The notes under the pieces are model-generated. The model ran no database searches. It was not told the DNA's origin and saw only the letters and a program-made list of their open reading frames with translations. A program made the translations under genes and the position numbers. A stretch of 64,000 bases of DNA from Eledone cirrhosa (Eukaryota): NCBI GenBank assembly GCA_964016885.1, contig OZ024740.1:56978001-57042000 (forward strand), given 5' to 3'. Shown one piece after another: positions 1 through 63,560 of the stretch. How positions within the stretch are numbered: position 1 is the stretch's first letter; each line of letters opens with the position of its first letter.

Positions 1-1382
1 GAAGGTGATTATGGTTTTACGGGCCGCAAGGATGACATCAACCTGGGCTCTAGTCAGGTCGCTATTGGTCATGGCCATGATAAGTGCCTTATTTAATAGG
101 ATAGGGGAAATAGAGGTGTAGTATGAATTGATATCAAATTGAATAAATTTTTTGTTTTTATTATTCTTGATATCCTTAAACCATTCAATTACTTCACCCG
201 TATTTCCCCATTGTTTAAGGTGTATCTTGTGTTTAATTTGTGGGATGATTTTATCCAAAATCTTCTTGCTGATAATACCAATGTCGGACTTGGAAGGGCA
301 GATAAGTCTTATCGTGGGGTTGCTGATGAAGTTCTCCTTATGGTCCTTCAGAGAGAATCTAGGGGGGTTCGGAGTGAAAGGTTGTGTATGCCTCTGTAGT
401 CCTAGTTTAGACACTATATTATAACCCTCTACATTAATATCTTCTAAGTTTTTCAAGGTGGTTTTTTTGTAGCTTTTATGTAGTTCATTATATATAAACT
501 TTCTATAAGTAATATAATCTAGGCTGTATATGTTATTAGTTTTATCTGCGTGTACAATAATTTTATTACTAGTTTTGAATCCACTAATAGAAGTGTTAAG
601 TTTGTTTAAGAAGGTGTTGCTTCTAATATGGTGCTTATTGTATTTAATGTTCTTAACTAGTTTAACTAGGTCATTTTCAAAGGAGTTAAGTAGAGTGTTA
701 TGAGGGGGGCTTTTAAAGGTTTTAAAGCCGAAGGAGTCAAAATTGTTAGTATTATTCAAGTTGTTAGATTTGTTTCTATCATAATGGAATGTCCTCCATC
801 TCACTCTATTGATAAATGAATTTACACTGTTGATCAGCAATTTCTCATATGTATTCCTGGATGGTATTGGTATGTTCTTGGTTGACATGGGGAGTTGGTC
901 TTTGATTAGCATATTGGCAATATTATATGTCAGCTCAACGATATGGAGCAGTTAATAGTATTAGTTATACTATTTATGGTTATGTAAATACAAAGCCTTA
1001 AGCAGTTGTAAGTATTTTACACACACCCTAAATAGTGGTAGGCAGTAACGTATTACTACCTTATTACCAGTAAGTTAAGTAGCTCAATGTAAAAACATCA
1101 GATGATTTACAGAGCAGTTATATGAAATATAAGAATCAAAGAACTGTTCAAAACATTATTGTGCTTACAGCTGTTTCCTCCAAACCGAGGTTTGGATTCT
1201 TCGGAGCAATTTATTAATGCATGGACAGTTATATGACCTCCTTTTCAGCCGAGAGACATACCAAATACATATTCAAACATTGATACATATTCAAACATTG
1301 TGGGTCAACATTCATTACAGAATTTAGAGTGGCAGTACACACTTCGAGATTACATTTATATTAATAGGTACAATCAAAAATC
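1..1382 (-). mobile_element. Inverted copy of the PLE-A 5' half (pLTR part + ORF starting at 912), running off the window start
   Basis: 1-1382 is the reverse complement of 1843-3224; mirrored ORFs 152..424 and 2801..3073 translate identically. Confidence 0.93.
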
Positions 1383-2015
1383 CCTTAGCCACACACACAC
1401 TTCCGGGATTCAATGGCGTTTCTCGAAACGTAACATCCCCCTGTATCGAACTAAAGAACACCAGACTACGATCTCTTACTGGATTGTCGTGGATTATGTG
1501 AAAGGCATATAATCGAAATATACACTCCCTTGACCATGAAAACGCCGAAGTACATGAATTACTTGACATCCCTGCGCTGTGCATCTCCAATACTTATAAC
1601 ACTTTTAATGCTTGCACTATCTTTAATGCTTATAATATTTCTCCACACACAGACTATATCAATCATATAAAGACTTTGCCACCAGACCTACCAACCTAAC
1701 ACTCTTATTTACCTACCTAAGTGCCTCTACCACACATATCTCTCTGCCACACTATATAAACAAGACGCACATGCGTGCCACACATATAACATTTGCACTA
1801 TATAACCACTTATCTTCATGCTGTACTTTAACCTATATCTTTGATTTTTGATTGTACCTATTAATATAAATGTAATCTCGAAGTGTGTACTGCCACTCTA
1901 AATTCTGTAATGAATGTTGACCCACAATGTTTGAATATGTATCAATGTTTGAATATGTATTTGGTATGTCTCTCGGCTGAAAAGGAGGTCATATAACTGT
2001 CCATGCATTAATAAA

Positions 2016-2063
2016 TTGCTCCGAAGAATCCAAACCTCGGTTTGGAGGAAACAGCTGTAAGCA
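2016..2063 (+). ncRNA. Type I hammerhead motif, family A (CCGAAGA core); copies 1162-1209(-), 6189-6236(+), 60052-60099(+)
   Basis: TGCT-CCGAAGA-A-TCCAAAC(CTCG)GTTTGGA-G-GAAA-CAGCTG-TA-AGCA: stem I TGCT/AGCA, 7-bp stem II, palindromic stem III, GUA site. Confidence 0.78.
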
Positions 2064-2312
2064 CAATAATGTTTTGAACAGTTCTTTGATTCTTATATTT
2101 CATATAACTGCTCTGTAAATCATCTGATGTTTTTACATTGAGCTACTTAACTTACTGGTAATAAGGTAGTAATACGTTACTGCCTACCACTATTTAGGGT
2201 GTGTGTAAAATACTTACAACTGCTTAAGGCTTTGTATTTACATAACCATAAATAGTATAACTAATACTATTAACTGCTCCATATCGTTGAGCTGACATAT
2301 AATATTGCCAAT

Positions 2313-60140: not shown

Positions 60141-60222
60141 TATATATATATATATATATATATATATATATATATATATATATATATGAAAAGTGTAATT
60201 TTCTACACAAAACGAAGGTTAT

Positions 60223-62995
60223 AGAGAAAATTGAGGTTGGTAATGGCACATGGAATATATAAGAGACAGAATACTTTTTTGTGAAAAAACATAATTTTAT
60301 AAGGTAAGGAAATAATAAAGGGTATAAAAAATGACCGGTTTCGATGGGTCTGCAAAAGCCATCTTTTCAAATGTTGATTAATATTAAGAAAAATTAATAA
60401 TACGAAGAGTTAAAATTTGAGACTTGAAAATTCAAGTATAAAATTCATTGTGGGATTTCATAGCAGTTTTCATCTAGGTAGCAACAACAGGTTGACTGCT
60501 GTGTCCCTTTCTGGTAGTGAATGAGAAGTTATTTGGGGTGTGGGTTATTTTATAAAGGTCAGATTTAGCAATAGCCAGCTGCTGGTCAGTCCCTTCTCTT
60601 ATTTGGAGACTCTTCTCTTATTTGGAGACTCTTTCCACACACACCTCAAAGCCAATTGGAAAAGATATCTAGACGACTGCTTTATCCTATGGCAAGAAGA
60701 CATGAACTCACTTACTACGTTTAAAAACATGATAAACAACATAGATAATAACATACAATTCACAATGGAATCCAATCCTAAGGAATTAGCCTTCTTGGAT
60801 ATTCTCATCTCTGTAATAGACGGGAAATTAGATACAGATATATTCTATAAACCCACAGATTCCAAGCAATACCTCTTTTTCACATCAAGTCACCCAAAAC
60901 ATACAAAACTTAACATTCCTTACAATTTGGCCAAACGTATATGTACCATAGTATCAGATCCACCTAAACGGGAGCAAAGACTAAAGGAACTAAAAGAGCC
61001 TTTCCACTTGAAACTTAAGAGCCTTTCCACTTGAAATAATCAACAATGGAATAGACAGGGCAAAACACCTAAATCCCCATCAACTTAACAATCCAAAACA
61101 GAAAACCACACTCAACACCCTGCCATATGTATCCACTTTCAACCCCAGAAATACCGAAATGTTTGATCACCTACACAAAAACCTCCCCATCCTACTTAAA
61201 GATGTAAAAATGAAGTCTATTCTTGAAACACACAAGATCCTTAAAAGTAAAAGACAACCCAAATCACTTAAACGCATTCTCACTGGACCAAATATACCCA
61301 AACCAATCCTCAACCCTACAGTTACCAAATGTGGTAGAACAAACTGTGGAACGTGCCTCTACCTCACTGAAGGACAAACATTTACATTCAAAGATGGCCA
61401 AACATTTACAGTAAAAAACAATTTCACCTGCAACTCGGAGAACTTGATTTACGCAATAACTTGCGGTGGGTGCAAACACAACTACATAGGACAGACGGGC
61501 ACCTCATTACGCAAAAGAATGACCATCCACCGCCAACAAATCCGGGACGCTAACACAAGAAAAATCCCCTTGAGCAGCCATATTGCGAACTGCGCAGGAA
61601 TGACACTACCCAACTTTAAAATCTTCCCCTTCTACAAGTGCTCAGATTCGTTCACACAACAACAAAGAATAAACAAAGAAAATCTATTCCTTAACAAATT
61701 TAAACCAAAACTAAACGGGTTATCACCCCAATAGAATTGTCATAAAATATAAACACACATACGCACGGAATCACTACTATTAAAGACCAGAGACCAATTC
61801 TGTAGAATCAGGTTTATTCATTGACAGACCATGCCTTTGTGTGACCAACACATCCATGTTAAACCCTGCACGTGCACACACGTATATCTATATATATATG
61901 CGCACACAGAATTATTTTAATTTCACTGCCCCAACTTCTTATATTATGGAAAAAATATATGTGTCTGTATGTATATATATATATATATATTTGAAGGCCA
62001 TTTCTCTGTGTGTGGGTGTATGTATGTGTGTGTGTGTGTGTGTGAGTATGTGTGTGCATGTGGATGTATGTATTGTGTGTGCGTGTGTGTGTGTGTGTGT
62101 GTATGTATGTGGGTATCTGGATGTATGCGTATGTGTATATATATATATATATGCATGTGTGTGTGTGTGTGTGTGTATATATATGTGTGTGTATGTGTGT
62201 ATATATATGTGTGTGTGTGTGTGTGTATGTTTGTATGTGTGTATGTATATATATATATGTGTGTGTGTATGTATGTGTGGGGGTGTGTGTGTGTGTGTGT
62301 GTATATATATATATATATATATATATATATATGTGTGTATATATATATATGTGTGTGTGTGTGTGTGTGTGTATGTATGTGTGTATCTGGATGTATGTGT
62401 ATGTATATATATGTGTGTGTGTGTGTATATATATATATATATATATATATATATATATGTGTGTGTGTGTATGTGTATATATGTGTGTGTGTGTGTGTAT
62501 GTATATGTATGTGTGTGTGTATGTATGTGTGTATATGTATATATATATATATATATATATATATGTATATGTATGTGTATGTATGTGTGGATGAAGGTAT
62601 GTGTGTGTATATTGCTTCCACCCCCTCACTGACCAGCAGCTGGCTATTGCTAAATCTGACCTTTATAAAATAACCCACACCCCAAATAACTTCTCATTCA
62701 CTACCAGAAAGGGACACAGCAGTCAACCTGTTGTTGCTACCTAGATGAAAACTGCTATGAAATCCCACAATGAATTTTATACTTGAATTTTCAAGTCTCA
62801 AATTTTAACTCTTCGTATTATTAATTTTTCTTAATATTAATCAACATTTGAAAAGATGGCTTTTGCAGACCCATCGAAACCGGTCATTTTTTATACCCTT
62901 TATTATTTCCTTACCTTATAAAATTATGTTTTTTCACAAAAAAGTATTCTGTCTCTTATATATTCCATGTGCCATTACCAACCTCAATTTTCTCT
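60223..62995 (+). mobile_element. Neptune-like PLE, 5'-truncated, with 368-bp inverted terminal repeats (60223-60590, 62628-62995)
   Basis: WKRYLDDCF, IQFTME, LAFLD, TDIFYKPTD, SSHP (60591-61034); KCGRTNCGTC, FTC..NLIYAITC..C..YIGQT, RMTIHRQQ, P.LN (61159-61734). Confidence 0.92.
62843..62890 (+). ncRNA. Type I hammerhead, family F (TTGAAAA core); mirror copy 60328-60375(-)
   Basis: AACAT-TTGAAAA-GATGG(CTTTTGCAGAC)CCATC-GAAA-CCGG-TC-ATTTT; weak stem I, palindromic CCGG, GUC site. Confidence 0.72.
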
Positions 62996-63480
62996 CTCTC
63001 TCTCTCTCTCTATATATATATATATATATATATATATATATATATATATATATATATATATATATATATATCGTGTCTATAGTCTGCCTTTCATAGGTTA
63101 TAGATTCCATACACGGGTGGTTTTTTCCCTGTATTATTGATAACACACTATATATCTCTCTCTGGTGTGTTACCTTCTCAACATATTGTATTTTAAAGAG
63201 CTCGGGATCTCTTCTCCTTTAAGCACATTATTTACAGGGAATAGCGAGGGCCTATGCCTCCGTTAATTGATCGTGATATTTCGCTCCTAATAACAGTCTT
63301 TCCTATCTCTGTTTGGTTGAGCACACTTCTCTGAGTGGCTTTGGGCTGCCCTTTCTAGCAGTGCGCCCCTCAGAGGCCACTGGTTCACTGCCCTTAAACA
63401 CGCTGTGACTTCTCTCTCCCACGTGTAGCTGGACAGTCAATTTTAAAATTCTCTTAGTGTTGTCTGAAATGTATGGCCTT

Positions 63481-63560
63481 ACACACACTGATGAACCGAG
63501 ACTAGACCATTTCTTTCTACAAATTTTTGGTGAAACATATCTTTGGATTTGTACGTGTGT
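63481..63560 (+). ncRNA. Hammerhead motif family L in a terminally redundant ~540-bp unit (63070-63720)
   Basis: ACACACA-CTGATGA-ACCG...TGGT-GAAA-CATATC(TTTG)GATTTG-TA-CGTGTGT; 63070-63190 is repeated at 63607-63720. Confidence 0.65.

What the first reader, a model, noticed from the sequence alone, without database searches (positions are those of the whole stretch)
1162..63560. About 14 unrelated families (~35 copies) of type I hammerhead-like ribozymes in 64 kb
Seen: stem I-YNGANRA-stem II-GAAA-stem III-UH-stem I' recurs with entirely different helix sequences (families at 2016, 6751, 7915, 12968, 14941, 20494, 23821, 24111, 29086, 38476, 47073, 52522, 62843, 63481). Known: PLE pLTRs and metazoan retrozymes carry minimal type I hammerheads. 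Inference: the unannotated DNA between microsatellites is largely a community of ribozyme-bearing retroelements, most of them non-coding and presumably mobilised by the PLE RT/GIY-YIG proteins also present. The density and diversity may be undescribed for this lineage.
Basis: partly seen in the sequence, partly recalled or inferred. Interest (0 to 1): 0.85.

Follow-up and report, generated by a model that had tools for sequence, protein, structure and literature searches.

The report
Penelope-element hammerheads and retrozyme repeats
This 64-kb stretch of a repeat-rich animal genome (likely an octopus relative) holds about 40 hammerhead-ribozyme-shaped motifs from 17 repeat families: most are tail ends of protein-coding Penelope-like jumping genes and six are short non-coding repeats likely copied around by the same machinery, both kinds known from other animals but here estimated at several hundred thousand per genome.

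Summary
A structure descriptor finds 25 motifs against 0.33 in shuffles; helices covary in related copies. The reading 'mostly non-coding' is wrong at family level: 9 of 14 (11 of 17) are 3' ends of 5'-truncated coding Penelope-like elements (PLEs; Hydra-type and Neptune-like). Five of 14 (6 of 17) are non-coding 319-600-nt tandem units, i.e. non-LTR retrozyme-like. These units carry the PLE insertion signature: two fixed 3' ends downstream of the ribozyme, (TA)n next to 187 of 232 3' ends, and inverted 5'-truncated partners. That supports mobilisation by PLE proteins; intact 832-aa ORFs exist. The window is only about 2.5 times the genome average (one motif per 6-8 kb; 107,000 counted directly, 370,000-450,000 estimated). 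Cleavage and expression were not shown, and 5' ends do not map to cleavage sites. Known kinds in a lineage where my searches found no report; the scan noted similar cases in other genomes.

The parts
1..6279 (+). Hydra-type PLE insertion: inverted copy (1-1382, runs on upstream of the window), pLTR 1382-2106, ORF 2313-4770 split near 3400-3416, 3' UTR, pLTR 5555-6279
2017..2063 (+). Hammerhead family 2021 (pLTR of the Hydra-type PLE); predicted cleavage after 2059
1162..1208 (-). Family 2021, copy in the inverted arm
6190..6236 (+). Family 2021, copy in the 3' pLTR
60053..60099 (+). Family 2021, separate truncated insertion (59649-60142)
6322..7671 (+). Non-coding 591-nt tandem unit x2 plus inverted 5' piece; U3-A8 hammerheads at 6398-6483(-), 6751-6838(+), 7342-7429(+)
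7700..12809 (-). Neptune-like PLE, broken ORF 8197-11907, pLTRs 7707-8655 and 11861-12809; hammerhead-like motifs with short stem I at about 7915-7958 and 12069-12112
12811..13151 (+). Non-coding 319-nt unit (slightly more than one unit); U3-A8 hammerhead 12965-13015
13176..13365 (-).
13701..15315 (.). Two insertions of the non-coding 456-538-nt unit with an internal (TA)n; hammerheads 13794-13834(-), 14749-14793(-), 14940-14984(+)
15385..15962 (+).
17556..20595 (.). Inverted pair of 3' UTR ends of a Hydra-type PLE; hammerheads 17607-17652(-) and 20499-20544(+)
23486..23930 (.). Inverted pair of PLE 3' ends; hammerheads 23536-23590(-) and 23821-23875(+); related degenerate copy 21535-21592(+)
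24055..24157 (-). 3' end of a C-rich Neptune-like PLE; core, stem II and CG stem III present, stem I only 1 bp
24164..24390 (.). Family 47117 inverted pair; hammerhead 24189-24235(-), degenerate 24241-24287(+)
28949..29448 (-). Non-coding 408-449-nt unit; hammerhead about 29086-29135 with 8-bp stem I and a mismatch in stem III
30118..33318 (+). Broken Neptune-like PLE, 85% identical to 7705-10894; degenerate motif near 33084-33127
33456..38596 (+). 5'-truncated Hydra-type PLE (ORF pieces 34496-36467, 2-kb 3' UTR) with inverted arm; hammerheads 33510-33576(-) and 38476-38542(+)
43700..45120 (-). Neptune-like GIY-YIG fragment (44638-45120) and 3' end; U3-A8 hammerhead 43748-43783; degenerate relatives at 16120-16157, 22024-22060, 23303-23339
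46880..47634 (-). 3' end of a Hydra-type PLE (3' UTR about 1.9 kb in longer copies); hammerhead 47073-47123
51406..52680 (+). 3' end of a Hydra-type PLE with inverted 5' arm; A4-variant hammerhead about 52522-52570 (stem III broken here); second copy 55152-55298(-)
57189..58211 (.). Inverted pair of the 14947-family unit; hammerheads 57456-57498(-) and degenerate about 57799-57840(+)
59375..59595 (.). Family 47117 inverted pair, degenerate (59474-59518-, 59519-59566+)
60138..63071 (+). 5'-truncated Neptune-like PLE (RT end and GIY-YIG, 60525-61734) with inverted arm; U3-A8 hammerheads 60328-60375(-) and 62843-62890(+)
63023..63720 (+). Non-coding 540-nt unit (more than one unit); hammerhead 63481-63560 with long stem III

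Best explanation
The motifs are type I hammerhead-ribozyme sequences carried by two linked kinds of repeat: the 3' ends of 5'-truncated protein-coding Penelope-like elements (11 of 17 families) and short non-coding tandem units of the non-LTR retrozyme kind (6 of 17), the latter likely inserted by the Penelope reverse transcriptase/GIY-YIG protein. Shown: the motifs, their family structure, the ORF link or its absence, tandem unit lengths, two fixed 3' ends 45-310 nt downstream of the predicted cleavage site in both classes, (TA)n neighbours, inverted 5'-truncated partners, dispersed 5' ends, and intact ORFs of one Hydra-type family. Inferred: a tandem (or circular) transcript is bound by the PLE protein, which nicks (TA)n DNA and starts reverse transcription at one of two internal sites beyond the ribozyme; synthesis usually stops early or flips strand, so each event leaves one or two hammerheads. 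The ribozymes would cut multimeric RNA mostly as dimers (palindromic stem III) and could yield monomer circles; this cutting is predicted only, and it does not set the ends of the insertions.
For: Motifs far above chance; compensatory changes in homology-selected copies (6 of 14 pairs, 95.6% of cells paired; 3 of 14) and C3-G8/U3-A8 alternation with only 3 of 111 U3-G8. GIY-YIG/RT frames on the same strand 0.9-2.3 kb upstream of 11 families; Hydra diagnostics RWR, DKT, CxCX5C, no CCHH. Head-to-tail units of 319, 408-449, 456-538, 536-542, about 555-600 and 590-591 nt without ORF or PLE-protein match. In these units 187 of 232 segment 3' ends are followed by (TA)5 (background 5.7%), 124 of 232 abut an inverted copy, 75 of 232 exceed one unit, and 3' ends fall in two clusters per family; coding families show the same two-site pattern, the PLE 'tail' signature of PMC11167929. 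59 of the 86 perfect matches to the Hydra-type RT lie in open frames of 826 aa or more (hand count).
Against: No cleavage or RNA data. Only 5 of 232 5' ends lie within 5 nt of the cleavage site (5.6 expected). No sequence homology was found between the six units and 11 pLTR regions, so no unit is tied to a partner PLE. The monomer minimum-energy fold keeps the inner stem I pair in only 9 of 25 window motifs. The base of stem II is G-C in only 31 of 111 motifs and often a mismatch. Covariation in the 23826 set is weak (1 of 19 pairs). The ORF link for 62848 rests on the window locus alone and for 43780 on two loci.
Confidence: 0.8

Rival explanations
1. Same elements, but most hammerheads do not cut in vivo: they are kept as protein-binding or folding signals, or are passengers of the PLE end, and the short units spread from linear read-through transcripts with no circle.
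For: 5' ends are not at cleavage sites; two PLE families have almost no stem I; frequent mismatch at the base of stem II; PMC11167929 found cleavage unnecessary for insertion in vitro and no RNA ends at the site; the 2026 preprint saw cleavage for 1 of 9 dimers.
Against: The catalytic core and the 3-8 pair are kept while helices turn over; 15598 folds into the full three-way junction as a monomer; four of six units fold as circles far better than shuffles (z -3.3 to -9.1); coral and mussel retrozymes cleave and circularise.
Confidence: 0.3
2. The non-coding units are mobilised by a LINE (for example R4/Dong, which I recall also favours simple repeats) or are satellites grown locally from detached pLTRs by unequal crossing-over.
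For: LINE RT fragments lie in the window; arrays of up to six units occur; no homology to pLTRs was found; the 2026 preprint discusses local amplification.
Against: Units are dispersed over many contigs at 96-99% identity, end at two fixed internal sites rather than in a tail, and carry inverted 5'-truncated partners like the coding PLEs.
Confidence: 0.12
3. The window is a special ribozyme cluster (hot spot) rather than ordinary intergenic DNA.
For: 25 hits vs a mean of 10 per 64 kb; bootstrap P about 0.005.
Against: The flanking 200 kb give 9.0 per 64 kb, single 10-kb stretches reach 7-9 hits, the bootstrap ignores local clumping, the descriptor was tuned on the window, and the window was picked for this feature. 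Elements nest in each other's (TA)n ends, which produces clumps.
Confidence: 0.08
4. The motifs are chance matches in AT-rich, palindrome-rich repeat DNA.
For: Rfam gives no hammerhead hit among the matches shown; a few singleton hits look spurious; the shuffle background is 1-6 per 590 kb at score 20.
Against: 75-fold excess over shuffles, reversed-pattern controls 0 vs 26,287 and 80,424, covariation, fixed position near element 3' ends.
Confidence: 0.01

Closest known systems
Minimal hammerheads (min-HHR) in pLTRs of metazoan EN+ Penelope-like elements (Cervera & de la Pena 2014, PMC4209133)
   Same: Type I core, short stem I, long or variable stem II, palindromic stem III, extra nucleotide after A9, U3-A8 variant, many heterogeneous families per genome, most copies single or opposite-strand pairs from truncated PLEs.
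   Different: Counts there are about 2,000-9,000 per genome (schistosome, coelacanth, Xenopus) against at least 107,000 counted here (descriptors differ); G10.1-C11.1 is described as highly conserved there but is a mismatch in many families here; no cephalopod in the text or the one supplement searched.
Hydra clade of C-terminal EN+ PLEs (Craig et al. 2021, PMC8557442)
   Same: RWR/RWK, DKT, CxCX5C linker, no CCHH, CxxC and CxH around the catalytic E and N, HHR present, insertion into (TA)n, tandem and inverted structures, tail.
   Different: Described as generally under 3 kb and a small clade; here the unit is 4.2 kb with 1-2.3-kb 3' UTRs and the clade is very abundant. Placement is by motifs, no tree was built.
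Non-LTR retrozymes of animals (Cervera & de la Pena 2020, PMC7229834; Li, Clavereau & Pollet 2026 preprint 10.64898/2026.07.22.740005)
   Same: Non-coding head-to-tail units with a type I HHR in each, GC under 50%, self-paired predicted circle, co-occurring with PLEs.
   Different: Units up to 600 nt (typical invertebrate range given as 170-400 nt; the preprint gives 51-972 nt); at least six families in one window; no homology to pLTRs found, unlike 21 of 57 Xenopus families; here the PLE link rests on the insertion signature, which the parts of those papers I read do not use; circRNA and cleavage untested.
Poseidon element PAc of Anolis (Frangieh et al. 2024, PMC11167929)
   Same: Two 3' ends downstream of the HHR, AT-rich targets, HHR cleavage not defining insertion ends.
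   Different: The tail there is 30-40 nt; spacing here is 30-165 nt depending on family; mechanism shown in vitro there, inferred here.

Membership tests
Type I hammerhead ribozyme (min-HHR type) | Core C3 U G A N G8 A9, G12 A A A, U16.1 H17 (or U3-A8 covariant) | tested here: met
   U4 varies (C or A) in families 2021, 38484, 52522
Type I hammerhead ribozyme (min-HHR type) | Three helices, stem I open, supported by covariation | tested here: met
   clear; weak; not met for stem I in families 24111 and 7915
Type I hammerhead ribozyme (min-HHR type) | G10.1-C11.1 pair at the base of stem II | tested here: inconclusive
   G-C in 31 of 111 motifs and 10 of 37 clusters; U.U in 31 and 8
Type I hammerhead ribozyme (min-HHR type) | Match to an Rfam hammerhead model | tested here: not met
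   none among the 150 of 159 matches shown
Type I hammerhead ribozyme (min-HHR type) | Self-cleavage at NUH | not testable with these tools
   needs in vitro transcription
EN+ Penelope-like element (11 families) | Single ORF with RT and C-terminal GIY-YIG upstream of the HHR-bearing end | tested here: met
EN+ Penelope-like element (11 families) | pLTR/partial tandem, inverted 5'-truncated copy, tail | tested here: met
EN+ Penelope-like element (11 families) | Hydra clade motifs (RWK, DKT, CxCX5C, no CCHH) for ORFs 2313-4770 and 34496-36467 | tested here: met
   by motif only
EN+ Penelope-like element (11 families) | Neptune vs Nematis placement of the CX4CxxC + CCHH ORFs | not tested
   motifs read; no tree
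Non-LTR retrozyme (6 families) | Head-to-tail units each with a type I HHR | tested here: met
Non-LTR retrozyme (6 families) | Non-coding, GC below 50% | tested here: met
   longest Met-ORF 28-81 aa, GC 0.32-0.42, no tblastn match to 19 PLE queries for five families; 15598 checked only for PLE matches
Non-LTR retrozyme (6 families) | Unit of a few hundred bases (150-450 nt in PMC7229834) | tested here: inconclusive
   two families inside, four above (456-600 nt), all within the preprint's 51-972 nt
Non-LTR retrozyme (6 families) | Strongly self-paired predicted circle | tested here: met
   z -9.1, -7.4, -7.0, -3.3; weaker for 63481 (-2.6) and 15598 (-1.7)
Non-LTR retrozyme (6 families) | Expressed as linear and circular monomer RNA | not testable with these tools
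   no RNA holder listed for the one family asked
Non-LTR retrozyme (6 families) | Absence of PBS/PPT; long target-site duplication | not tested
   targets are (TA)n runs, which hide duplications

The most novel reading that the evidence does not exclude
This is the most hammerhead-dense animal genome described (one motif per 6-8 kb, several hundred thousand in dozens of families), in which at least six retrozyme families are live circular-RNA parasites of Hydra/Neptune PLEs, copied from two fixed internal start sites; the largest family carries its own expandable (TA)n and so seeds new targets, making PLEs and their retrozymes a driver of the genome's (TA)n load.
Probability: 0.3. Interest if true: 0.72.

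Novelty: new member of a known kind. Interest (0 to 1): 0.48.

Why it matters
Which enzyme moves animal retrozymes is still a hypothesis in the papers read (co-occurrence and pLTR homology). Here six non-coding families show the same two-site 3' end, (TA)n target and 5' inversion as the coding PLEs beside them, and an intact, very young PLE family is present, so the helper-parasite link can be tested directly.

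Tried and rejected
Rfam scan: only microsatellite-driven miRNA matches among those shown. The repeat finder was swamped by microsatellites. DNA search for family 14947 returned nothing because the words are too common; an exact pattern then gave 10,122 matches. Idea that ribozyme cleavage sets the template 5' end: rejected. Idea that U3-A8 cores mark partners of the Neptune-like ORFs: rejected, a Hydra-type ORF also has one. 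Homology of units to pLTRs: none beyond low complexity; two short matches come from overlapping window slices. Idea that 24111 is a non-coding element: four extended loci showed no ORF, but 7 of 24 further loci did. Palindromic stem III as a discriminator: 77 of 111 vs 18 of 35 in shuffles, weak. Expression: no RNA holder listed; four contig runs of unrecorded kind hold the 591-nt unit with a head-to-tail joint, which tandem DNA explains; no evidence either way. Lineage could not be confirmed from calls (47, 84 give no usable names). Literature searches for a cephalopod hammerhead report (term searches) found only Naiad entries with a half core in Octopus and Euprymna.

Full report
OBSERVATION. 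All 14 coordinates hold a hammerhead core, a stem II and GAAA. By homology the 14 families have 35 copies, and three more families (13296, 15598, 43780) bring the total to 41; 22 of the 35 pass the descriptor. Many copies are mirror pairs of one insertion; I count about 22 events. Rfam shows no hammerhead among 150 of 159 listed matches. Covariation was counted on copies chosen by BLAST, not by structure: family 12972, 6 of 14 pairs change on both sides, 95.6% of cells pair, 0 of 500 shuffles reach the cell count though 77 reach the pair count; family 47117, 3 of 14; family 23826, 1 of 19, weak; the 2021 alignment was not counted. In 111 unbiased motifs positions 3-8 are C-G 87, U-A 21, U-G 3.

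WHAT EACH FAMILY IS. The window is G000:C1:56978001-57042000 of a 3.0-Gb assembly. I fetched 20-24 top-scoring loci for 11 families, 24 exact-pattern loci for 14947, 20 for 15598, and extended 20 loci by 6 kb. Coding class: coverage decays upstream as expected for 5' truncation and the longest copies run into same-strand RT/GIY-YIG frames ending 0.9-2.3 kb before the ribozyme: 52522, 13296, 23826, 47117, 20503, 24111 (7 of 24 loci; an 815-aa open frame in L369), and, in the window itself, 2021, 7915, 38484, 62848 and 43780. The link for 62848 rests on one locus. ORFs 2313-4770 and 34496-36467 have RWR, DKT, CxCX5C and lack CCHH, the Hydra diagnostics; 8197-11907, 60525-61734, 44638-45120 and the 24111 ORF have CX4CxxC plus CCHH, Neptune/Nematis-like. 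Non-coding class: head-to-tail spacing of 319 (12972), 590-591 (6756, up to six in a row), 456-538 (14947, varying with an internal (TA)n), 408-449 (29086), 536-542 (63481) and about 555-600 nt (15598), longest Met-ORF 28-81 aa and no match to PLE proteins. Rough spans: 31 kb PLE-like, 5.7 kb non-coding units, 57% of the window (PLE spans set by hand).

HOW THEY MOVE. In the six non-coding families 3' ends fall in two clusters downstream of the predicted cleavage site (about +141/+170, +80/+245, +251/+300-310, +145/+177, +178/+266, +155/+300); 187 of 232 distinct segments end next to (TA)5 vs 5.7% of random windows, 29 of 232 have it at the 5' end, 124 of 232 abut an inverted copy and 75 exceed one unit (segments of 14947 are fragmented by its internal (TA)n). 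Six of eight families examined (seven coding plus 15598) show two 3' clusters; 47117 and 24111 show mainly one. This is the architecture given for PLEs (PMC8557442) and the two-site initiation shown in vitro for Anolis Poseidon (PMC11167929). 5' ends are dispersed: 5 of 232 within 5 nt of the cleavage site vs 5.6 expected, so cleavage does not set insertion ends; the loci are top BLAST hits around the ribozyme, which biases the sample to young copies. A helper exists: 59 of 86 perfect matches to the Hydra-type RT sit in open frames of at least 826 aa, including the inverted copy across the window start (hand count). No unit could be tied to a helper by sequence. Inferred model: tandem or circular RNA, PLE protein nicks (TA)n, internal priming, frequent truncation or strand flip. 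Ribozyme activity is predicted only; most stems III are loopless palindromes, which the literature links to dimer folding, 15598 folds as a full monomer junction, and the inner stem I pair is in the minimum-energy fold for 9 of 25 motifs.

DENSITY. Fifty-nine 10-kb stretches at round-number positions (38 on the four largest contigs; one further request did not exist) hold 92 motifs at score 20 (shuffles 1-6) and 74 at score 24 (0-2): 8-10 per 64 kb; the 200 kb flanking the window give 9.0; the window 25 (bootstrap P 0.005, ignoring clumping and selection). Extrapolation: 447,000 (305,000-609,000) or 373,000 (246,000-510,000). Whole-genome exact counts for two patterns, 26,287 and 80,424 with reversed controls 0, exceed the sample's predictions of 20,311 and 66,010, so the extrapolation is not inflated for these. 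111 motifs in 790 kb fall into 37-45 clusters. Published counts: about 2,000 min-HHRs in schistosome, 4,000 coelacanth, 9,000 Xenopus, over 6,000 in 16 families in coral, about 5,000 in mussel, up to 120,000 in axolotl (genome 28 Gb). Descriptors differ, so 'denser than any described' is not established.

COMPARISON AND NOVELTY. Works like, and meets the testable features of, PLE min-HHRs and non-LTR retrozymes; cleavage and circRNA are untested. Differences: scale, long 3' UTRs in Hydra-type elements, units to 600 nt, frequent mismatch at the base of stem II (G-C in 31 of 111), and an insertion-signature link between retrozymes and PLEs. The lineage (octopod-like) is from a recalled SINE-like signature and microsatellite richness, not from a call. 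Searches for a cephalopod hammerhead report and term searches found none apart from Naiad half cores; the library lacks most subscription papers.

PAPERS SEEN. bioRxiv 10.64898/2026.07.22.740005: parts 1-3 of 5. PMC4209133: parts 1-2 of 4 and passages of one of two supplements. PMC7229834: passages, part 2 of 6, sections 14 and 17; supplement unreadable, may bear on invertebrate coverage. PMC8557442: passages, section 11, supplement passages. PMC11167929: parts 1-2 of 4. PMC13282606: part 1 of 3 and term search. PMC6765202 and PMC8967140: passages. Lunse et al. 2016 (PMC5785218): title in a reference list only; it may cover molluscan variants. Earlier scan notes report truncated PLE ends and a TA-targeted non-coding unit in other genomes; they were read after my classification and are not evidence.

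VERDICT. Real and accurately counted; interpretation partly right. New members of known kinds, notable for abundance and for a testable helper-parasite signature. Interest 0.48.

Noticed in passing
window 25735-25931, 41897-42030, 48500-48644, 49595-49780, 52294-52393, 55636-56084: Copies of an abundant SINE-like repeat (83-95% alike) that I recall from octopus genomes; it also sits inside some PLE 3' UTRs.
   Followed up: no
window about 48000-50995 (+), 38900-41900 (-), 42100-42700 (+): Broken LINE-type frames: an RT at 50153-50995 (RVT_1 E 2e-4), an endonuclease-like decayed region on the minus strand, and an RTE-like remnant.
   Followed up: partly
window about 54600-54900 (-): Decayed PIF1-type helicase motif (LSFAITINKAQGQT), probably a Helitron fragment; label recalled, Pfam scan not obtained.
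   Followed up: no
units of families 14947 and 29086 (L293, L233; window 14878-15315, 28949-29448): Each carries an octamer ATGCAAAT upstream of the ribozyme, absent from the 11 pLTR regions checked; I recall snRNA-type promoters for newt satellite 2, not confirmed by search.
   Followed up: partly
family 14947, G000 genome-wide: At least 26,287 copies; the unit contains a (TA)n whose length varies between neighbouring tandem units (456-538 nt) and covers 1.1% of 790 kb.
   Followed up: partly
window 9913-11907 (-) and 3400-4770 (+): Long Asn-rich insertions inside the PLE ORFs; the 24111-family ORF is instead Pro-rich with a C-rich sense strand.
   Followed up: no
G000 genome-wide; window 13296 and 38484: One hammerhead superfamily with shared stem I and a conserved C.Y mismatch at position 4 of stem II has 80,424 exact pattern matches; the mismatch may mark a tertiary contact.
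   Followed up: partly
run X1 on window 6490-7074: A run of unrecorded kind holds the 591-nt unit as one closed 621-nt contig at depth 7.8, without the variant cloud seen in X2; could be RNA or sparse DNA.
   Followed up: no
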